A DNA stretch of 64,000 bases from Escherichia phage PNJ1902. The notes below the pieces were generated by a model that worked only from the letters and a program-made list of their open reading frames with translations, was not told where the DNA came from and searched no databases. Made by a program: the position numbers and the translations under genes. Below are positions 3,258 to 31,262 of the stretch, piece after piece (position 1 is the stretch's first letter; each line of letters opens with the position of its first letter). The stretch lies in sequence record OK254197.1. One strand, 5' to 3'.

Positions 3258-3764
3258 TTACACCTTAAATTGTTGTAAGGATTTACACATTTCAAGATCT
3301 GGGCTAAATTCTAGCATATAGCTAACAGCTTTTAAATCTTGAAGATTTATCCCAGTCCTACCGTTGACTATAACCGTTGGATACTGATACATCATAGCAC
3401 CCGCATCATCAAGCACACACCAATGTTTGAGCTTATGATTTTCAACAAAGCGAAGAACAGAATTACCCCTAGATAATCCACCCCCAGTAAAATCCGTTGT
3501 ACCAAGAAAACGATCGATAAGACCTAATCTGGTCATAATCTGAACGTTCTCCATTTCATTTCTGACAGAAAACCAAGATGATACTCCAACAATCATTATC
3601 GGAGAAGGACGAATAAAGTCCTGAAAAGCCTTGAGAAGCGGTTTGAAAACCCAATCACTTCCAAAGAAAATCTTTTCATCATCAGGTGCATGATGGTGGG
3701 AGATGCTCGAATTGAGCACCCCATCAATATCTAGAAAAATAATTGGAGTATTACTTATTTCCAT
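3258..3764 (-). CDS. HAD-superfamily phosphatase-like protein
   Basis: N-terminal FLDIDGVLN (HAD motif I, DxDG) in ORF translation. Confidence 0.5.
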   Translation of the reverse strand: MEISNTPIIFLDIDGVLNSSISHHHAPDDEKIFFGSDWVFKPLLKAFQDFIRPSPIMIVGVSSWFSVRNEMENVQIMTRLGLIDRFLGTTDFTGGGLSRGNSVLRFVENHKLKHWCVLDDAGAMMYQYPTVIVNGRTGINLQDLKAVSYMLEFSPDLEMCKSLQQFKV

Positions 3765-3960
3765 TTTTGTTCCTTTCTAAGAACGTATCATACTCAACCG
3801 TATCAACATATATAACACCATAGTCATCGGATTTATAGTCCATTTCCCACAGCTCACAGCGATAGCACCAACTACCATCCGCCCACACAAATATATCATC
3901 GGGATGTGTATACACAGGTTTAACTATGGACATATCTGTTTCCCTTGCTTCTCGACACAT
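3751..3960 (-). CDS. Hypothetical small protein
   Basis: ORF track, in operon context on minus strand. Confidence 0.35.
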   Translation of the reverse strand: MCREARETDMSIVKPVYTHPDDIFVWADGSWCYRCELWEMDYKSDDYGVIYVDTVEYDTFLERNKNGNK

Positions 3961-20245: not shown

Positions 20246-20468
20246 ATATTCATAAATTAGGGAACAGCGAGCCGATTACGCTGAGTGCAGAATCCCAACC
20301 GGAGCGCATTGAATAGAGTCGGTGGGTTAGTTGTAAAACTAGTACACAGGGGGCGGCAATCCCGGTTAGTGGCTAGAACGTGTAAAATGAGGCGTCTGAA
20401 ACCTCTCCCCTAAACTCTTCTCTAATTTATAAATAGTGGGGTGTGGAAATCACTTATGTAGTAACACT

Positions 20469-20540
20469 GCCGTCCTAGTATAATTGGTATTATCAAGCCG
20501 TAACTGGTGGAAGATGTAGGTTCGAATCCTACGGTCGGTA
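20469..20540 (+). tRNA. Possible tRNA or tRNA-like element (anticodon not resolved)
   Basis: T-arm gtagg-ttcgaat-cctac with acceptor-like pairing; anticodon arm could not be folded by hand. Confidence 0.25.
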
Positions 20541-21042
20541 AGAACTGGATAACTGGTGCTTTTAATGTAAAAGCTTCCGAGGTTAGTTGCGCACTGCCTA
20601 AACCACGCGGTAGTTGGTTCCAGACTAGCCAACCAGTCTGCTGAATAGTTTTATTACGATTTAACTATGTCCAGACTAAAGAAGAACTTTAGAAGGTATT
20701 CTAGGATAGTGAAGTTCTTTCTCCATATCGGAGTAGTTTTTCAAGCTATCCACAAAGTGGGAAATGCTGACATGAGAGATGTCACTAATGGTGCACAATA
20801 GCACAGGTAATTCGCGATAATTCCTGTTGAGTAGCAGCAAAAGGCGGGAAGTCATGACCCCAAGCCTAACCGAGTCCTCAATATACCGCAGGACATAACC
20901 ACTAAGTCACCCTGACTTAAACTGGAAAATAATAGACGTTACCGTATTTTGTCTTGAAATACTTAATGAGTGAGACTTATGACTCTCCCGGTATCGTCTG
21001 TATTTTTAAGAGTTTTTACGAGAGTTCTTAAAAATACTTAAA

Positions 21043-26641: not shown

Positions 26642-26914
26642 ATGCATCCTGAAAACTTCTTTATTTACTGCGCGGATAAGTCGCTGAAACGTAGAATTAA
26701 CAAAGTCTATCATTATCGTGCTAGTCAACAGCCTTATGTATACGCTTTTGACGGTGATCACATTCCATTAGAACAATTATCTTGTGATTACATGATATTG
26801 AAGAACTTTGACGAGACAAAGATCTCAAGCGTTCACAATCGACAGAATCCATTAACGTGGAAATATAAGAAGAAAAAGAAAGGCATCAAATTCTTAAAAA
26901 ATGTAGTTGCTTAG
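26642..26914 (+). CDS. Hypothetical protein
   Basis: ATG 26642 after GAAGGAG; in-frame part of track ORF 26627..26914. Confidence 0.45.
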   Translation: MHPENFFIYCADKSLKRRINKVYHYRASQQPYVYAFDGDHIPLEQLSCDYMILKNFDETKISSVHNRQNPLTWKYKKKKKGIKFLKNVVA

Positions 26915-26935
26915 TTTCCAAAAGTTCTGTATAAT
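26907..26935 (+). promoter_or_regulatory. sigma70-type promoter (TTGCTT-17-TATAAT)
   Basis: Read from sequence. Confidence 0.55.
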
Positions 26936-27061: not shown

Positions 27062-27201
27062 TTGCTGAAAGAATTGTTTTAACAATTCAGGCACGCGTAG
27101 GAACACTGTCTCCGTAATTGAAAGATGAGGCACGGTTTGGAGAGGTATGCCGCTACACGCTACGGTGCTAACTCCGTCTAGGTGAAAATCCTAGTCAGCA
27201 A
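27062..27201 (+). ncRNA. Long tRNA-like element (about 140 nt) closed by a perfect 7-bp terminal helix
   Basis: ttgctga...tcagcaa closure; internal T-arm-like ctagg-tgaaaat-cctag. Confidence 0.3.
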
Positions 27202-27211
27202 TATAAATTTA

Positions 27212-27294
27212 GGGTCGTTAGCCAAGCGGTTTGGCGGTGGACTGTTAATCCATGTCGAAAGACAACGTAGGTTCGAATCCTACACGGCCCGCCA
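27212..27294 (+). tRNA. tRNA-Asn-like (anticodon GUU) with unusually long variable arm
   Basis: Acceptor gggtcgt/acggccc, D-stem gcca/tggc, anticodon loop ctgttaa, hairpinned 13-nt variable arm, CCA. Confidence 0.55.
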
Positions 27295-27396
27295 AATTCT
27301 GTGTAGAGTTAAGTAAACCGGTAGCCAACCAGCTATCATTGCTGACATCGAATTCAGCCACAGATACCATTTTCATTAATAACTGAGGAAACAAGC

Positions 27397-27582
27397 ATGT
27401 CCAAGAATGTAATTGCGCAGCTAGAAGTTCATCGTGATAGCACTATCAACAATATTGAAGTTGAGAAGAAATACATCGAAGAACTTAAACATGATATACT
27501 AGTAAGTCTTAATCGTCTTAATGTACGAAAAGAGTTTCTTAAGGAACTTAATGCAGCTATTGAAAAACTCAAAGCTGAGTAA
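27397..27582 (+). CDS. Hypothetical small protein
   Basis: ORF track; GAGGAAACAAGCATG. Confidence 0.45.
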   Translation: MSKNVIAQLEVHRDSTINNIEVEKKYIEELKHDILVSLNRLNVRKEFLKELNAAIEKLKAE

Positions 27583-27591
27583 ATGAATTAT

Positions 27592-27668
27592 GCGACAGGG
27601 GCTGGCTTGGTAATGGTACTCCCCTGTCACGGGAGAGAATGTGGGTTCGAATCCCATCGGTCGCGCCA
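27592..27668 (+). tRNA. tRNA-Asp (anticodon GUC)
   Basis: Anticodon stem ctccc/gggag, loop ctgtcac, T-arm gtggg-ttcgaat-cccat, CCA. Confidence 0.65.
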
Positions 27669-27694
27669 AATTAAACTAGCACGAGAAATATGCT

Positions 27695-28042
27695 ATGATT
27701 AATGCTAAAGAAGAGTTGTTACTTGCCCTAAAGAATACTAATTCTGAAGTTAAGTGTATTAAGATAGAATTCGGTTATTATGGAGACAAAGAAGTTTGGG
27801 TATTGCCCGTAGGTTATACAGAAAAAGATATTGAAGATTTTCTAAATAATCTAGACTTTAAATATGACTCGGGTTTCGGTGGACAATTGCTTTATGGTAA
27901 CGTATGGTTTACTGATGGAACTTGGTTAGAACGTGGTGAATATGATGGTTCTGAATGGTGGGAGTATAAGACTACACCAGCAATCCCTGAGGAATGCCGA
28001 ACAATTAATGGTGAAGTAGATAATACTTTACGGTTAAACTAA
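27695..28042 (+). CDS. Hypothetical protein
   Basis: ORF track. Confidence 0.5.
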   Translation: MINAKEELLLALKNTNSEVKCIKIEFGYYGDKEVWVLPVGYTEKDIEDFLNNLDFKYDSGFGGQLLYGNVWFTDGTWLERGEYDGSEWWEYKTTPAIPEECRTINGEVDNTLRLN

Positions 28043-28046
28043 TAAA

Positions 28047-28157
28047 ATTTCAGTGCAGAACACGGAGCTAGCAATTCGGAAGTGCTGACTCATGATAAGC
28101 TGCCTATGTACTTGCGAAGCGGTCGTGTCCAAGACTCGGACTCTTGCACTGAAAACA
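28047..28157 (+). ncRNA. Candidate structured RNA closed by 10-bp terminal helix
   Basis: tttcagtgca...tgcactgaaa complementarity; no ORF. Confidence 0.25.
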
Positions 28158-28165
28158 ATCAAACA

Positions 28166-28287
28166 TTCTAGCGTGGTTGATGGGGAAACCAGCTTGGCTA
28201 GGGCAGAAGCTCGTTCGATTCGAGTGAAAGAATGGTTCTCGTAAGTCCGCACAAGTGATAACAGGTTCGAGTCCTGTCTAGAATGAC
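28166..28287 (+). ncRNA. Long tRNA-like element (about 120 nt)
   Basis: 7-bp closure attctag/ctagaat, D-arm-like tggt...acca, T-arm acagg-ttcgagt-cctgt with about 60-nt insertion. Confidence 0.3.
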
Positions 28288-28434
28288 ACTATAAAGTTTA
28301 CTTATTATGTAGGTTCCGATAGATCGGCGGGTCTATTCTGGCATTTAAGAGAGGTCTCGCAAACTTCTTTGTCAGCCGTGGGGTTGGTAGCCTCCAGGTG
28401 GCCTACACAATAAGTAAATTTATTAAAAATTCAT

Positions 28435-28463
28435 TTGCTATTCTGCTTAATTCTCTGTATAAT
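28435..28463 (+). promoter_or_regulatory. sigma70-type early promoter (TTGCTA-17-TATAAT)
   Basis: Read from sequence. Confidence 0.55.
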
Positions 28464-28496
28464 ATATTTTATAAAGTGAAGAGAAGGAAAGCAAAA

Positions 28497-28655
28497 TGAA
28501 ACACAAGATAGCTCAAGTTTTTATGGCATTATGGTGTATGCCAGTAGCTATAACAGCATTTAATCTAGATACTTTTACTATAGAAGAAAAATGTATCGGG
28601 TTAGTTAGCGGCTTTAGTATGCTGGGCTTATCCTTGTTGTGGTTGAAGAAATAAT
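28497..28655 (+). CDS. Hypothetical 52-aa membrane protein
   Basis: ATG after GAAGGAAAG RBS downstream of promoter; hydrophobic. Confidence 0.35.
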
Positions 28656-28658
28656 ATT

Positions 28659-28736
28659 CTCCGTGTAGCTCAGTTTGGCCAGAGCGTTTCGTTTGGGGCG
28701 ATAGGGTCGGGGGTTCAAATCCTCCCACGGAGACCA
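28659..28736 (+). tRNA. tRNA-Pro (anticodon UGG)
   Basis: D-arm gctc...gagc, anticodon loop tttgggg, T-arm ggggg-ttcaaat-cctcc, CCA. Confidence 0.65.
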
Positions 28737-28742
28737 AACAAT

Positions 28743-28820
28743 TGCGGGTTAGATCTCTGGTAGAGATCGCTAGTCTCATAAGCTAGAAAGAGGTAGGTTC
28801 GATTCCTGCACCCGCTTCCA
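28743..28820 (+). tRNA. tRNA with CAU anticodon (Met/Ile2), 1-72 mismatch
   Basis: D-arm gatc...gatc, anticodon stem ctagt/gctag, loop ctcataa, T-arm gtagg-ttcgatt-cctgc. Confidence 0.55.
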
Positions 28821-28840
28821 TTTTAATAGAGGATTTCGAA

Positions 28841-29001
28841 ATGAAAGTATTTCGATTAGTAGTAAGTGACAAACGTTTAGGTAAGAATACATCAAAATCC
28901 TTAATCGCTCATTACGGTAAAAATTGGGATGAAGTAATGGCAGAGTTTAATACTAATCACCCTTACTTGAAAGTTCACTCTATTAAAGAAGTATACAATG
29001 G
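28841..29001 (+). CDS. Hypothetical 52-aa protein
   Basis: ATG 28841 after GAGGA; below ORF-track cutoff. Confidence 0.3.
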
Positions 29002-29009
29002 TTACTAAT

Positions 29010-29088
29010 AGATCGCTAGCTCAATAGGTTTAGTAGCATCCGACTTTTAATCGGAAGGTTCTGGGTTCGAGTCCCAGGCGATCTACCA
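29010..29088 (+). tRNA. tRNA-Lys (anticodon UUU)
   Basis: Acceptor agatcgc/gcgatct, anticodon stem tccga/tcgga, loop cttttaa, T-arm ctggg-ttcgagt-cccag, CCA. Confidence 0.7.
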
Positions 29089-29107
29089 ATTTCAAGAAAA
29101 ACGCAGT

Positions 29108-29135
29108 TGCTTGATGCTTAATTTCTTGTTATAAT
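29108..29135 (+). promoter_or_regulatory. sigma70-type promoter (TTGCTT-16-TATAAT)
   Basis: Read from sequence. Confidence 0.5.
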
Positions 29136-29182
29136 ATTTATATAAATTGATGAGGAGAGATCCTCATCATAGTTCACTAAGG

Positions 29183-29350
29183 TATTAGCTCGACCTAGGA
29201 CTGGCTGCCAAAAAGCACGATCCCTTCTACTTGGGAGAAGTTCTAGATTAGTCCACTAGATTCAGCGGCAACTGAATAGTGTATCGGGTTTGCGAGATGA
29301 CGCAGTTCCTTCCGCTCGAAGCGAAGGTGCTGTAGTTACGCCGAGCTAAT
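29183..29350 (+). ncRNA. Candidate structured RNA closed by 9-bp terminal helix
   Basis: attagctcg...cgagctaat complementarity; multiple internal hairpins; no ORF. Confidence 0.25.
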
Positions 29351-29373
29351 AGCCTTAGTAAACTAAAGATTTT

Positions 29374-29448
29374 GGGCGGTTAGTTTATCTGGGAAAATAC
29401 CTGACTTGCACTCAGGAGTGAGGAGTTCGACTCTCCTACTGTCCACCA
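29374..29448 (+). tRNA. tRNA-Ala (anticodon UGC)
   Basis: Anticodon stem cctga/tcagg, loop cttgcac, T-arm aggag-ttcgact-ctcct, CCA. Confidence 0.65.
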
Positions 29449-29466
29449 AATTAAAGGGTATGTAGT

Positions 29467-29967
29467 ATGAAGGTAGCTAAAAATGGGAGAAAAGATAACT
29501 TAAATGAGTTAGAAATATTCCTCCACAATAACAAACTAGACGTAACCGCTAGTAATTACATGCAAATAGCTCTATGGTATAATGGGTATATAGTTAGGAA
29601 GGCCAATCCTAGTAAGGATAAGAAGTCAAATACATACCAAAAGAGACTAGAGCATAGCTATCAAAGATCCCTAAGAGTAGTACAGCTTTATTGTTATATC
29701 AATAATATAAATAATAAGCTGGGATATATTTATATAATATCTAATCCAGCTTTTCCAGGCTGGTTTAAAGTAGGAGCAGCCAAAGATGCTGAGACTAGAT
29801 TAAATACCTATCAAACATACTCCCCTTTTCGGGACTATGTATTAGAGTATTATAAACTAGTAGATAATTATGAACTCAAAGAAAAAGAAATCCTAAGTTC
29901 TTTTTCATCTAGAAATAATGAGTGGGTTCATGCTCCACTTGAAGAAATAATTGCTTGCGTGGCGTAA
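29467..29967 (+). CDS. GIY-YIG / T5orf172-type nuclease-domain protein (homing-endonuclease-like)
   Basis: GYIYIISNPAFPGWFKVGAAKD...R...Y..Y...E motif; 3' end overlaps tRNA-Leu by about 15 nt. Confidence 0.5.
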   Translation: MKVAKNGRKDNLNELEIFLHNNKLDVTASNYMQIALWYNGYIVRKANPSKDKKSNTYQKRLEHSYQRSLRVVQLYCYINNINNKLGYIYIISNPAFPGWFKVGAAKDAETRLNTYQTYSPFRDYVLEYYKLVDNYELKEKEILSSFSSRNNEWVHAPLEEIIACVA

Positions 29968-30035
29968 TTGGTAGACGCGCGATCCTTAGGAGTTCGTGTT
30001 AATTCGTGTGGGTTCGAGTCCCTCCGCAAGCACCA
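29953..30035 (+). tRNA. tRNA-Leu (anticodon UAG), class II
   Basis: Acceptor gcttgcg/cgcaagc, D-loop aattggtagac, anticodon loop cttagga, long variable arm, CCA. Confidence 0.65.
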
Positions 30036-30039
30036 AATT

Positions 30040-30112
30040 TGATGGTCAGAGTAAATTAAACCTACTATCTCGGTTGAGCTGTTTTAATGGGTTCGAATCC
30101 CAGCGAGGCGTA
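30040..30112 (+). tRNA. Possible degenerate tRNA or pseudo-tRNA
   Basis: T-arm-like tggg-ttcgaat-ccca but no complementary acceptor strand found. Confidence 0.2.
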
Positions 30113-30147
30113 ACTGCCTGGTGTGATAGGGGCATCATCTTATTATT

Positions 30148-30238
30148 GGAAGAGCAAATCGAATTGGCGACGAAAACCGCTTGGAAAGTGGCTGACTGGT
30201 AAAACGGCTTGAGAGTTCAAATCTCTCCTCTTCCGCCA
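30148..30238 (+). tRNA. tRNA-Ser (anticodon GGA), class II
   Basis: Acceptor ggaagag/ctcttcc, anticodon loop ttggaaa, T-arm gagag-ttcaaat-ctctc, CCA. Confidence 0.65.
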
Positions 30239-30250
30239 AACAATTTATAT

Positions 30251-30345
30251 GGTAGGTCAATCCAACGGCTGGCGCTGGACTCCGACTTGAAATCGGTTGA
30301 TCGTAGTGATACGGTGTAAGGGTTCGATCCCCTTACCTACCTCCA
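30251..30345 (+). tRNA. tRNA-Ser (anticodon UGA), class II
   Basis: Acceptor ggtaggt/acctacc, anticodon loop cttgaaa, T-arm aaggg-ttcgatc-ccctt, CCA. Confidence 0.6.
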
Positions 30346-30350
30346 AATCT

Positions 30351-30482
30351 TGAAGTATGCCGGAATTGGTAGACGGGGCTGCCTAAAAGGTTTATAGAGA
30401 ACATCCACTCTCTACAACATACCTCATAAAGCGGCTGAGATAAATGGTCTATCTCGTGAAGGTTCAAGTCCTTCTGCTTCTT
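30351..30482 (+). ncRNA. Long tRNA-like element with Leu-type D-arm and canonical T-arm, about 55-nt insertion
   Basis: D-loop aattggtagac, T-arm gaagg-ttcaagt-ccttc, acceptor-like pairing of ends. Confidence 0.3.
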
Positions 30483-30711
30483 GATACATCTATGGCTCAA
30501 AGTGTAACGGTGCTATTTGATGCTCTTAGTAAGACTTCCCCGACATGCGTTCGGGAGTAAGCTGCTAAGGCTAGGGTAGAAGAGTTTCGGAGAGCCGCCA
30601 CAATTGAAAATTCGTACTCGTCTTGAGCTGCGTGCAATAGGAGATAACTTGATTAGTATTCTAGAACATGCTAATTGAGGAAGGTTTCGCTAACCCTGCG
30701 AGTTTTCAATT

Positions 30712-31178: not shown

Positions 31179-31186
31179 AACAATAA

Positions 31187-31262
31187 GCGGTTAAGCACAC
31201 GGGTTGTGCCGCAGGCCTTCCAAGCCTCGCTGAGTAGGGTTCGATTCCCTCTAGCCGCTCCA
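31187..31262 (+). tRNA. tRNA-Gly (anticodon UCC)
   Basis: Acceptor gcggtta/tagccgc, loop cttccaa, T-arm taggg-ttcgatt-ccctc, CCA. Confidence 0.55.

What the first reader, a model, noticed from the sequence alone, without database searches (positions are those of the whole stretch)
27062..30482. Family of 110-170-nt tRNA-like or structured RNA elements closed by perfect 7-10-bp terminal helices
Elements at 27062-27201, 28047-28157, 28166-28287, 29183-29350 and 30351-30482 have 5' and 3' ends that are exactly complementary. Several also carry a canonical T-arm or a Leu-type D-arm but have an extra 50-70 nt where the anticodon arm should be. They are too short for group I introns and lie between bona fide tRNAs under the same promoters. 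They may be stable phage RNAs, tRNA genes with unusual insertions, or decoys or processing substrates.
Basis: seen in the sequence. Interest (0 to 1): 0.7.

Follow-up and report, generated by a model that had tools for sequence, protein, structure and literature searches.

The report
Phage T5's stable tRNA-like RNAs
These five stretches are five different small structured-RNA genes sitting among the tRNA genes of a T5-like phage: three were catalogued long ago in phage T5 as "stable RNAs with unknown functions", two have never been annotated, and what any of them does is still unknown.

Summary
The window is a T5-like phage (Tequintavirus). Three of the five elements are orthologues of RNAs already annotated in the T5 and BF23 GenBank records: RNA2 (28164-28288), RNA2H (29183-29354) and RNA1 (30349-30493), noted there as "(tRNA-like) stable RNA with unknown functions". 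Element 1 (27062-27201) and element 2 (28048-28154) are annotated nowhere, and no Rfam family matches any of the five.

Covariation strongly supports the folds of element 1, RNA1, RNA2 and RNA2H (12-26 base pairs each with compensatory changes; 0 of 500 shuffles reach the observed score). Element 2 is conserved at 93% identity or more in 219 phages but shows no compensatory change, so its fold is unproven.

The five do not resemble one another in sequence, so they are not one family. RNA1 and RNA2 are tRNA frames whose anticodon loop is replaced by a conserved structured domain. Element 1 keeps an acceptor plus T-like minihelix. RNA2H and element 2 are not tRNA-like.

New here: RNA2 also occurs in T4-like phages, once with no tRNA gene nearby, and two lineages encode a 3' CCA on it. 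Element 1 also occurs in Vequintavirinae.

Function remains unknown. The best guess is trans-acting tRNA mimics matured by the tRNA-processing machinery.

The parts
27062..27201 (+). Element 1: unannotated 140-nt structured RNA. It has a 7-bp terminal helix directly abutting a T-like arm (CTAGG-TGAAAAT-CCTAG), a D-position hairpin and a long central arm. It lies 2 nt after tRNA-Cys and 10 nt before tRNA-Asn.
   Evidence: 35 pairs, 98.4% paired, 12 with compensatory changes, covariation score 0.294 vs 0.127 in shuffles (0/500). Found in 219 phage records including Vequintavirinae Klebsiella phages. Absent from T5 and BF23, which carry a T5orf172-domain ORF at this site. No Rfam hit.
28048..28154 (+). 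Element 2: unannotated conserved element closed by a 10-bp perfect helix (TTTCAGTGCA/TGCACTGAAA). No tRNA-like arms. Fold unproven.
   Evidence: 99% identical to the unannotated gap between T5.067 and RNA2 in T5. Present in 219 records, all at 93% identity or more. No compensatory change. Occurs without the upstream ORF in TrudiGerster. The overlapping ATG ORF is not conserved.
28164..28288 (+). It encloses an insert of about 60 nt containing a second T-arm-like hairpin and the conserved core TGAAAGAATGGTTCNCGTAARTCCGCA.
   Evidence: 96% identical to T5 rna2, annotated "tRNA-like stable RNA with unknown functions". 32 pairs, 26 with compensatory changes, score 0.556 vs 0.19 (0/500). The model built from it also matches about 200 ordinary tRNAs over its full length.
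29183..29354 (+). RNA2H (element 4): 172-nt multi-hairpin RNA closed by a 10-bp helix. It is the first gene after the P13b-type promoter and lies 19 nt before tRNA-Ala. Not tRNA-like.
   Evidence: 96.5% identical to T5 rna2H. 52 pairs, 13 with compensatory changes, score 0.237 vs 0.122 (0/500). The 5' three quarters are missing in phage FFH_1.
30349..30493 (+). RNA1 (element 5): class-II, tRNA-Leu-like frame with a 6-bp acceptor, Leu-type D-arm, long variable arm (GAGATA-AATGGTC-TATCTC) and T-arm. The anticodon arm is extended to three helical segments capped by an almost invariant 8-nt loop, ACAUCCAC.
   Evidence: 86% identical to T5 rna1. 34 pairs, 99.5% paired, 13 with compensatory changes, score 0.276 vs 0.115 (0/500). 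ARAGORN -i calls it tRNA-Phe(aaa) with a 41-nt intron, but that anticodon is not conserved.
27297..27369 (+). RNA3, a related T5 RNA gene not in the finding (putative tRNA-like RNA).
   Evidence: 100% identical to T5 rna3.
28307..28409 (+). RNAIV, a related T5 stable RNA not in the finding.
   Evidence: 98% identical to T5 rnaIV. Folds with a terminal helix.
30494..30600 (+). RNAI, a related T5 stable RNA not in the finding. Has an acceptor-like helix GGCTC/GAGCC followed by G-CCA.
   Evidence: 90% identical to T5 rnaI; sequence read directly.
30605..30710 (+). RNAIII, a related T5 stable RNA not in the finding. Closed by a 12-bp terminal helix and directly abuts tRNA-His.
   Evidence: 99% identical to T5 rnaIII. 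Fold z-score -2.9.
26907..26935 (+). T5-type early promoter (TTGCTT-17-TATAAT) heading the unit tRNA-Cys, element 1, tRNA-Asn, RNA3, ..., element 2, RNA2, RNAIV.
   Evidence: Read directly from the sequence. Same position relative to tRNA-Cys as T5 promoter P14b.
28435..28463 (+). Promoter (TTGCTA-17-TATAAT) immediately after RNAIV. It marks the end of the unit that holds element 2, RNA2 and RNAIV.
   Evidence: Consensus scan, 10/12 matches. Same position as T5 P13a.
29107..29135 (+). Promoter (TTGCTT-17-TATAAT) 48 nt upstream of RNA2H.
   Evidence: Read directly from the sequence. Same position as T5 P13b.

Best explanation
SHOWN. The five intervals are five different, mutually unrelated structured-RNA genes embedded in the early tRNA operons of a T5-like phage. 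Three are the known T5/BF23 stable RNAs RNA2, RNA2H and RNA1. Element 1 is a previously unannotated member of the same kind, with a fold supported by covariation. Element 2 is a conserved candidate whose fold is unproven. RNA1 and RNA2 are built on a tRNA chassis (acceptor, D-arm with GG, T-arm) in which the anticodon loop is replaced by a conserved structured domain. Element 1 keeps only the acceptor plus T-like coaxial minihelix.

INFERRED, biogenesis. They are co-transcribed with the tRNAs from sigma-70-type early promoters. The host tRNA-maturation machinery cuts them out: RNase P at the acceptor/T minihelix or at the 5' end of the next tRNA, followed by 3' trimming and CCA repair. The closed terminal helix protects them from exonucleases, so they accumulate as stable RNAs.

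INFERRED, function (least certain). They do not decode. They act in trans as tRNA mimics. The tRNA frame provides maturation, stability and docking onto a tRNA-binding factor. The conserved distal loops (RNA1 ACAUCCAC; the RNA2 28-nt core; the element 1 run AUGCCGCUACACGCUACGG) provide the specific contact. The most plausible partner is a host tRNA-targeting defence nuclease or a tRNA-processing or modifying enzyme that is titrated or diverted.

My confidence is about 0.9 in the identity, about 0.6 in the biogenesis and about 0.3 in the decoy/mimic function.
For: Identity:
- blastn of T5 misc_RNA genes onto the window gives 86-100% identity.
- GenBank notes read "stable RNA with unknown functions" and "tRNA-like stable RNA with unknown functions" in AY543070, AY692264 and NC_042564.

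Structure:
- Compensatory changes are seen in element 1, RNA1, RNA2 and RNA2H, with 0/500 shuffles reaching the observed covariation score and slid controls far lower.

tRNA frame:
- The RNA2 covariance model matches about 200 bona fide tRNAs over its full length at 15-36 bits.
- RNA2 homologues in Klebsiella KPN4 and Enterobacter KKP_3711 encode a 3' CCA.
- RNAI ends in GCCA.

Operon context:
- The elements have the same strand and a 0-19 nt spacing to flanking tRNAs.
- Promoters sit at the positions annotated in T5.

Trans-acting function rather than a mere processing signal:
- Unpaired columns are as conserved as paired ones or more so (RNA2 33% vs 14% invariant; RNA1 59% vs 53%).
- The RNA2 core is kept between Demerecviridae and T4-like phages while every helix around it has changed.
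- Element 1 is shared with Vequintavirinae.
- A full-frame RNA2 homologue stands alone, with no tRNA gene within 10 kb, in contig L035.
- The RNA2 core is absent from about 100,000 bacterial genomes.
Against: - There are no expression, end-mapping or interaction data for this phage or for elements 1 and 2. "Stable RNA" rests on the T5/BF23 depositors' annotation.
- Element 2 has no covariation support.
- No partner was identified. The YqeY-like neighbour in L035 is not conserved.
- Some phages carry truncated copies: RNA2H in FFH_1 and element 1 in L081 (by its length, phage NR01). T5 itself lacks element 1. So the RNAs are individually dispensable.
- RNA1 and element 1 encode no CCA in any lineage.
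- The T-like loop of element 1 (UGAAAAU) and its D-position loop (no GG) lack the canonical elbow signature.
- The literature searched gives no function for these RNAs or for T4 RNAC/RNAD.
Confidence: 0.55

Rival explanations
1. Cis-acting punctuation and stability elements. The structures exist only to direct RNase P, RNase E or RNase III cuts that separate tRNAs and small-ORF mRNAs in the polycistronic early transcripts, or to protect transcript ends. The excised RNAs would be inert by-products.
For: All elements lie at junctions between tRNAs, ORFs and promoters with 0-19 nt spacing. RNA2H is the first element after a promoter, and RNA2-RNAIV close a unit just before the next promoter. Element 2 directly follows an ORF stop codon. 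The SegB paper (PMC2330249) mentions proposed down-regulation of the T5 tRNA-cluster endonuclease genes by transcript processing.
Against: A processing signal needs shape, not sequence. Yet the distal loops are the most conserved parts, and the RNA2 core survives transfer between phage families with different neighbours. RNA2 also occurs alone, between two ORFs and without tRNAs, in L035. The T5 depositors describe them as stable RNAs, which means they accumulate.
Confidence: 0.25
2. Decaying tRNA pseudogenes. These would be former tRNA genes disrupted by insertions and carried along in a recombination-prone region, with no function of their own.
For: The region is mosaic, with homing-endonuclease-type ORFs (HNH, T5orf172) and alternative occupants of the same site. 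Truncated copies exist. The phage lineages differ in which RNAs they carry.
Against: Compensatory substitutions maintain every helix, including those inside the "insert". The inserts are more conserved than the frames. RNA2 and element 1 are conserved across phage families. Pseudogenes would accumulate helix-breaking changes.
Confidence: 0.07
3. Functional decoding tRNAs with short introns in the anticodon loop that are spliced out after transcription.
For: ARAGORN with introns allowed reports tRNA-Phe(aaa) with a 41-nt intron for RNA1. Under relaxed settings it reports tRNA-Arg(ccg) for RNA2 and tRNA-Pyl(cta) for element 1. The KKP_3711 record annotates part of its RNA2 homologue as tRNA-Arg(ccg).
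Against: The nominal anticodon loops are not conserved: CTAAAAG, CTAAAGG, CGAATAG and CTAACGA, with U33 lost in T5. The inserts are far below group I intron size and no intron family matches in Rfam. From established knowledge, Enterobacteria have no protein tRNA-splicing endonuclease. The "intron" is itself the conserved, covarying part.
Confidence: 0.03
4. Element 2, and possibly others, is not an RNA gene. It would be a conserved DNA-level or protein-coding feature: a small ORF, a recombination or endonuclease target, or the 3' UTR/terminator of the upstream ORF.
For: Element 2 is 93-100% identical in 219 records with no compensatory change. ORFs of 29-72 aa overlap it. It was not annotated as an RNA by the T5/BF23 depositors, who annotated its neighbours.
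Against: The only ATG ORF (28092-28244) runs into the RNA2 gene, and its start codon is destroyed in TrudiGerster. Element 2 also occurs without the upstream ORF. A 10-bp perfect closing helix is unlikely by chance (4 observed vs 0.21 expected for the region). There is no T-run after it, so it is not an intrinsic terminator.
Confidence: 0.1

Closest known systems
Phage T5 / BF23 stable RNAs RNA1, RNA2, RNA2H (with RNA3, RNAI, RNAIII, RNAIV, RNAX), annotated in GenBank AY543070, AY692264 and NC_042564
   Same: They are direct orthologues of three of the five elements (86-96.5% identity, same order between the same tRNAs). Elements 1 and 2 share their genomic niche and closed-helix architecture.
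   Different: Element 1 is absent from T5 and BF23. Element 2 is present there but unannotated. No structure, covariation analysis, cross-family distribution or function is recorded in the annotations or in the literature I could search.
Phage T4 species 1 and species 2 RNAs (rnaC, rnaD)
   Same: They are small stable RNAs (139 and 119 nt) encoded at the end of the T4 tRNA cluster. Their role has been unknown for decades (PMC3014915; annotation). rnaC has a canonical T-arm next to its 3' strand and long extra arms.
   Different: They show no sequence homology to any window element beyond the T-arm. rnaC scores only 18.7 bits with the RNA2 model, which is ordinary-tRNA level. The RNA2 homologues found in T4-like phages (Acinetobacter phage 133, contigs L024 and L035) are distinct from rnaC and rnaD.
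tmRNA tRNA-like domain
   Same: An acceptor stem and T-arm are retained, the anticodon arm is replaced by other structure, and there is a CCA end (own knowledge).
   Different: ARAGORN makes no tmRNA call and there is no Rfam match. There is no tag reading frame or pseudoknot ring. G3:U70 is absent except in the Serratia phage Kamaji RNA2 homologue. These RNAs are also much shorter.
Bacterial and phage Y-RNA-like tRNA mimics (YrlA)
   Same: These are non-coding RNAs that mimic the tRNA D/T elbow and acceptor and are handled by tRNA enzymes (own knowledge of Chen et al. 2014, not re-read here).
   Different: In YrlA the 5'/3' ends form the Ro-binding stem, not the acceptor. No Rfam family matched here even at E<=10. 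I did not test for an Rsr/Ro gene.
Canonical tRNA (Rfam RF00005), including class-II tRNA-Leu
   Same: RNA1 has a Leu-type D-arm, long variable arm and T-arm. RNA2 has acceptor, D- and T-arms in tRNA register. The RNA2 model cross-detects tRNAs.
   Different: There is no 7-nt anticodon loop and no conserved anticodon. RF00005 does not match. CCA is encoded only in some RNA2 lineages.

Membership tests
T5/BF23 stable RNAs (rna1, rna2, rna2H) | Sequence orthology and conserved position between the same tRNA genes | tested here: met
   RNA2 96%, RNA2H 96.5% and RNA1 86% identity over their full length. The order tRNA-Asp..RNA2-RNAIV-P13a..P13b-RNA2H-tRNA-Ala..tRNA-Ser-RNA1-RNAI-RNAIII-tRNA-His is kept. 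Not met for element 1 (absent from T5). Element 2 is present in T5 but not an annotated member.
T5/BF23 stable RNAs (rna1, rna2, rna2H) | Accumulation as a discrete stable RNA in infected cells | not testable with these tools
   This rests on the depositors' notes ("stable RNA") in AY543070 and NC_042564. There are no data for elements 1 and 2.
tRNA (RF00005) | Score at or above the Rfam gathering threshold (29 bits) | tested here: not met
   There is no RF00005 hit on any of the five elements at gathering level or at E<=10, even in 1.4-1.5-kb scans with lax filters.
tRNA (RF00005) | Acceptor stem, D-arm and T-arm in cloverleaf register | tested here: met
   Met for RNA2 and RNA1 (the RNA2 model cross-matches about 200 tRNAs). 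Partly met for element 1: acceptor plus T-like arm, but a non-canonical T-loop and no GG in the D-position loop. Not met for RNA2H and element 2.
tRNA (RF00005) | 5-bp anticodon stem with a 7-nt loop carrying U33 and a conserved anticodon | tested here: not met
   The loop is replaced by a 43-60-nt structured domain. The nominal anticodon loops differ between homologues and lack U33 in T5.
Intron-containing tRNA (bacterial group I intron in the anticodon loop) | Intron with a group I core (over about 200 nt) and a conserved anticodon flanking the insertion | tested here: not met
   The inserts are 41-63 nt. No intron family appears in Rfam scans. The anticodon is not conserved.
T4 species 1 / species 2 RNA (rnaC, rnaD) | Sequence or structure homology to T4 rnaC or rnaD | tested here: not met
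   blastn finds only 10-13-nt T-arm matches. rnaC scores 18.7 bits with the RNA2 model, like any tRNA, and rnaD gives no hit.
tmRNA | tRNA-Ala-like domain with G3:U70, a tag-peptide reading frame and pseudoknots | tested here: not met
   ARAGORN reports no tmRNA. There is no Rfam tmRNA hit. G3:U70 is seen in only one RNA2 homologue.
YrlA / bacterial Y RNA | Match to the Rfam model; Ro/Rsr-binding stem formed by the 5'/3' ends; neighbouring rsr gene | tested here: not met
   No Rfam family matches at E<=10. The 5'/3' ends form an acceptor-like helix instead. Presence of an rsr gene was not tested.

The most novel reading that the evidence does not exclude
These are modular "tRNA-chassis effector RNAs". 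Phages would have repeatedly rebuilt tRNA genes into trans-acting non-coding RNAs by replacing the anticodon loop with a new recognition domain. Such RNAs (RNA2, element 1) would be exchanged horizontally between unrelated phage families (Demerecviridae, T4-like Straboviridae, Vequintavirinae). Their job would be to engage host tRNA-binding machinery, for example as decoys or inhibitors of anticodon nucleases and other tRNA-targeting defences, or as modulators of tRNA-processing or modifying enzymes. That would finally give a function to the T5 and T4 "stable RNAs of unknown function".
Probability: 0.25. Interest if true: 0.8.

Novelty: new member of a known kind. Interest (0 to 1): 0.45.

Why it matters
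Phage-encoded stable RNAs in tRNA clusters (T4 species 1 and 2; T5 RNA I-IV, RNA1-3) have been known for decades, and a 2010 T4 review still lists the roles of the T4 RNAs as unknown. Modern T5-like genome annotations omit them: none of the non-T5/BF23 records inspected here annotates them, and Rfam has no model for any of them.

This analysis contributes:
- covariation-supported secondary structures for four of them;
- evidence that two are tRNA frames carrying a replaced "anticodon" domain;
- one new member (element 1) and one new candidate (element 2);
- the finding that RNA2 and element 1 cross phage-family boundaries, that RNA2 can stand alone without tRNA genes, and that RNA2 can carry an encoded CCA.

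Phage tRNAs have recently been shown to counter tRNA-cleaving defences (PARIS; retron Eco7). These tRNA mimics are therefore obvious, directly testable candidates for related roles. If they prove inert, the practical value is still better annotation of hundreds of T5-like therapeutic-phage genomes, including avoiding mis-calls such as "tRNA-Arg(ccg)".

Tried and rejected
1. One-family hypothesis. All-against-all blastn of the elements, T4 rnaC/rnaD and the Acinetobacter phage element found no similarity, apart from RNA2 to the Acinetobacter element.

2. Homology of T4 rnaC/rnaD to RNA2. A 10-nt match (TCGATTCGAG) looked suggestive, but the covariance model scores rnaC at generic tRNA level only.

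3. Degenerate core pattern AATGGN{1,6}CGTAANTCCGCA in viral contigs. All 37 new loci but one were chance matches without the flanking hairpins.

4. RNA2 core in about 100,000 bacterial genomes. Six hits, none RNA2-like by the model.

5. Element 1 core in metagenomes. Only T5-like copies plus one chance hit.

6. A protein partner. A YqeY-like (GatB-tail family) gene lies two genes upstream of the stand-alone RNA2 homologue in L035. It has no homologue in the window or in E. coli/Salmonella T5-likes, so I rejected it as a conserved partner.

7. Small-ORF reading of element 2. Rejected because the ORF overlaps RNA2 and its start codon is lost in TrudiGerster.

8. Intron-containing tRNA reading. 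Rejected.

9. The internal fold of the RNA2 insert beyond the T-arm-like hairpin. Two mutually exclusive pairings of the conserved CC are both compatible with the few informative substitutions: with AGGG (Y:R covariation), or with the GG of AATGG (supported only by L024). This is left unresolved.

10. Literature searches for a function of the T5 RNAs found nothing.

11. Generic promoter/terminator scan. The counts are no higher than in shuffles, so promoter assignments rest on T5 annotation and direct reading.

Full report
WHAT THE WINDOW IS. The 3.5 kb around the finding matches 517 phage records. The best is Salmonella phage vB_SalS_ABTNLsp9 (Demerecviridae, Tequintavirus) at 98% identity. 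ARAGORN and Rfam find 21-23 tRNA genes on the + strand between 20.4 and 32.8 kb. This is the early tRNA region of a T5-like phage.

THE OBSERVATION.
- Perfect Watson-Crick terminal helices exist for four of the five elements, at or within 1-3 nt of the stated coordinates: element 1, 7 bp; element 2, 10 bp; element 3, 8 bp; element 4, 10 bp.
- Element 5 has only 4 perfect bp, or 6 bp with one G.U.
- A 7-bp closing helix spanning 105-175 nt is not unusual here (18 observed vs 13.6 +/- 3.8 in dinucleotide shuffles). Helices of 10 bp or more are unusual (4 vs 0.21).
- The canonical T-arms (elements 3 and 5), the Leu-type D-arm (element 5) and the extra sequence at the anticodon position are all present.

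WHAT THEY ARE. Most GenBank records of T5-like phages leave these intervals blank. The T5 record AY543070, the T5 st0 record AY692264 and the BF23 tRNA-region record NC_042564 are the exceptions. They annotate eight misc_RNA genes here: RNAIII, RNAI, RNA1, RNA2H, RNAIV, RNA2, RNA3 and RNAX. The notes read "stable RNA with unknown functions" or "tRNA-like stable RNA with unknown functions".

Mapping those genes onto the window gives:
- Element 3 is RNA2 (28164-28288, 96% identity).
- Element 4 is RNA2H (29183-29354, 96.5%).
- Element 5 is RNA1 (30349-30493, 86%).
- Element 2 is 99% identical to an unannotated 121-nt gap in T5 and BF23.
- Element 1 has no counterpart in T5 or BF23. They carry a 172-aa T5orf172/MUG113-domain ORF at that site.

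No Rfam 15 family matches any of the five elements, even at E<=10 in short, laxly filtered scans.

NOT ONE FAMILY. All-against-all comparison shows no similarity among the elements. What they share is context (tRNA operons) and architecture: a terminal helix closing a multi-branch fold.

STRUCTURES AND COVARIATION. I collected homologues from GenBank phages and IMG/VR and counted pairs with shuffle and slide controls.

| Element | Sequences | Pairs | % cells paired | Pairs with compensatory change | Covariation score vs shuffles |
|---|---|---|---|---|---|
| Element 1 | 9 distinct | 35 | 98.4 | 12 | 0.294 vs 0.127 (0/500), slides <=0.04 |
| RNA1 | 18 | 34 | 99.5 | 13 | 0.276 vs 0.115 (0/500) |
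| RNA2 | 15 (five phage groups) | 32 | 96.2 | 26 | 0.556 vs 0.19 (0/500), slides <=0.107 |
| RNA2H | 13 | 52 | 97.8 | 13 | 0.237 vs 0.122 (0/500) |

- In element 1, the terminal helix changes from TTGCTGA/TCAGCAA to TTACTGA/TCAGTAA to TTGTCTA/TAGACAA.
- In RNA1, the compensatory changes lie in the acceptor, all three segments of the extended arm and the variable arm.
- In RNA2H, the compensatory changes are mainly in two variable hairpins. The 10-bp terminal helix is almost invariant, with one compensatory change and one A.C break.
- Element 2 is present in 219 records, all at 93% identity or more. It shows no compensatory change, and its substitutions fall mostly in predicted loops. Its fold is therefore unproven.

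ANATOMY.
- RNA2 is a tRNA frame: an 8-bp acceptor, a 5-bp D-stem with a GG-containing loop, a 5-bp stem at the anticodon position, a 4-nt variable loop and a canonical T-arm. The frame encloses about 60 nt that contain a second T-arm-like hairpin (NNNG-TTCGATT-CNNN) and the conserved run TGAAAGAATGGTTCNCGTAARTCCGCA.
- A covariance model built from RNA2 scores true homologues at 64-151 bits. It then matches about 200 ordinary tRNAs across its whole length at 15-36 bits. This is a quantitative demonstration that the frame is a tRNA frame.
- RNA1 is a class-II, tRNA-Leu-like frame. Its anticodon arm is lengthened to three helical segments capped by the nearly invariant 8-nt loop ACAUCCAC.
- Element 1 has a 7-bp terminal helix stacked directly on a T-like arm. 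This gives the 12-bp minihelix geometry that, from established knowledge, RNase P recognises. Its T-like loop (UGAAAAU) and its D-position loop (no GG) lack the canonical elbow signature.
- RNA2H and element 2 have no tRNA-like arms.
Under relaxed settings it calls element 1 and RNA2 as tRNAs with 63- and 48-nt introns.
- The nominal anticodon loops are not conserved (CTAAAAG, CTAAAGG, CGAATAG, CTAACGA). The "introns" are the conserved, covarying part. So these are not decoding tRNAs.

NEW DISTRIBUTIONAL FACTS.
- RNA2 is not confined to T5-likes. Homologues with the same core, and with compensatory changes in the flanking hairpins, occur in Acinetobacter phage 133 (a T4-like phage), in an unannotated 105-nt gap between tRNA-Gly and tRNA-Cys.
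- RNA2 homologues also occur in two contigs of 164 and 167 kb, in Serratia phage Kamaji, in Klebsiella Sugarlandvirus and in Enterobacter phage KKP_3711.
- In contig L035 a full-frame homologue (128.5 bits) lies between two small ORFs, with no tRNA gene in 10 kb.
- The KPN4 and KKP_3711 homologues end in an encoded CCA. The Kamaji homologue has G3:U70 with A73.
- Element 1 occurs in Vequintavirinae Klebsiella phages (P8734, NDO71 and a 147-kb contig) between two tRNA-Ser genes.
- The RNA2 core is absent from about 100,000 representative bacterial genomes. The six pattern hits are all rejected by the model.

HOW THEY PROBABLY WORK.
- Shown: they lie in the same transcription units as the tRNAs. 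Promoters of the T5 early type (TTGCTT-17-TATAAT) sit at the positions annotated in T5. The spacing to neighbouring genes is 0-19 nt.
- Inferred: they are excised by the tRNA-maturation machinery and stabilised by the closed terminal helix.
- Function: unpaired columns are as conserved as paired ones or more so (RNA2 33% vs 14% invariant; RNA1 59% vs 53%). The RNA2 core has been kept while all surrounding helices were rewritten, and RNA2 can exist away from tRNAs. Together these argue for a sequence-specific, trans-acting role, not a mere processing signal.
- My preferred model, at about 0.3, is tRNA mimicry. The frame docks on a tRNA-binding factor and the replaced "anticodon" domain provides specificity. 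The RNA could act as a decoy or inhibitor of tRNA-targeting host defences or of tRNA enzymes. This fits the recent finding, cited in the BF23 paper, that T5 tRNAs counter such defences (PMC10644984; PMC11464382, listed).
- Against any essential role: T5 lacks element 1, FFH_1 lacks most of RNA2H, and one contig (L081; by its length, phage NR01) has a half-replaced element 1.

COMPARISON WITH THE KNOWN. The closest known entities are the T5/BF23 RNAs themselves, which include direct orthologues of three of the five. By analogy, the next closest are T4 species 1 and 2 RNAs (rnaC, rnaD), whose "biological roles are unknown" (PMC3014915). T4 rnaC shares the plan of a T-arm plus long extra arms but is not homologous. 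The tRNA, intron-containing tRNA, tmRNA and YrlA memberships all fail on tested defining features.

VERDICT. Element 1 is a new, well-supported member of this kind, and element 2 is an unproven candidate. The "family" label is wrong. The scientific interest lies in an old, still-open question, now sharpened by structures, cross-family conservation and an obvious experimental path. It does not lie in a new kind of element.

Noticed in passing
L035:3005-3831 (IMG/VR contig 3300035181_002522, 164 kb): A full-frame RNA2 homologue (3708-3831) stands alone with no tRNA gene in the 10-kb locus. Two genes upstream lies a YqeY-like protein (PF09424; PHROG "tRNA amidotransferase"). YqeY homologues are widespread in large tRNA-carrying phages but absent from the window and from E. 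coli T5-likes.
   Followed up: partly
window 27062-27201 versus L005:6007-6525 (T5.069): Element 1 and a T5orf172/MUG113-domain ORF (phrog_5032) are alternative occupants of the same site between tRNA-Cys and tRNA-Asn. The window carries a paralogous ORF of the same family at 29467-29967, whose 3' end overlaps tRNA-Leu.
   Followed up: partly
L087:1547-1674 (Enterobacter phage KKP_3711): The record's "tRNA-Arg(ccg)" at 1549-1618 is the 5' 70 nt of its RNA2 homologue (111 bits). This is probably a tRNA-finder mis-call. ARAGORN makes the same call on the window's RNA2 under relaxed settings.
   Followed up: partly
window 30036-30147: A 110-nt segment contains a T-arm-like hairpin (TGGGTTCGAATCCCA) at the place where T5 has the HNH endonuclease gene hegC. 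It may be a tRNA remnant or another small RNA.
   Followed up: no
window 30148-30240, 30251-30346 and 31186-31262: Three tRNAs that ARAGORN misses under default settings: tRNA-Ser(GGA), tRNA-Ser(UGA) and tRNA-Gly(UCC). They are annotated in T5. Rfam detects them only weakly, as tRNA-Sec-like hits below threshold.
   Followed up: partly
window 30494-30600 (RNAI) and 30605-30710 (RNAIII): RNAI has an acceptor-like helix GGCTC/GAGCC followed by G-CCA, an encoded CCA end. RNAIII is closed by a 12-bp helix and abuts tRNA-His with a 1-nt gap. Neither was in the finding, though both belong to the same set of T5 stable RNAs.
   Followed up: partly
L088:1410-1500 (Escherichia phage TrudiGerster): An unannotated stretch of about 90 nt ends in CCACCA directly upstream of that phage's element 2 copy. 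It may be another tRNA-like RNA.
   Followed up: no
window 20413-21042: This is the orthologue of T5 RNAX, a 719-nt "stable RNA with unknown functions" directly upstream of tRNA-Arg. It matches in two blocks (91% and 98% identity). Rfam places a weak tRNA hit (20469-20540) inside it.
   Followed up: no
L039:306-429 (Serratia phage Kamaji): This phage's RNA2 homologue has a G3:U70 wobble pair and an A73 discriminator, the classical alanine identity set. It is the only lineage that has this.
   Followed up: no
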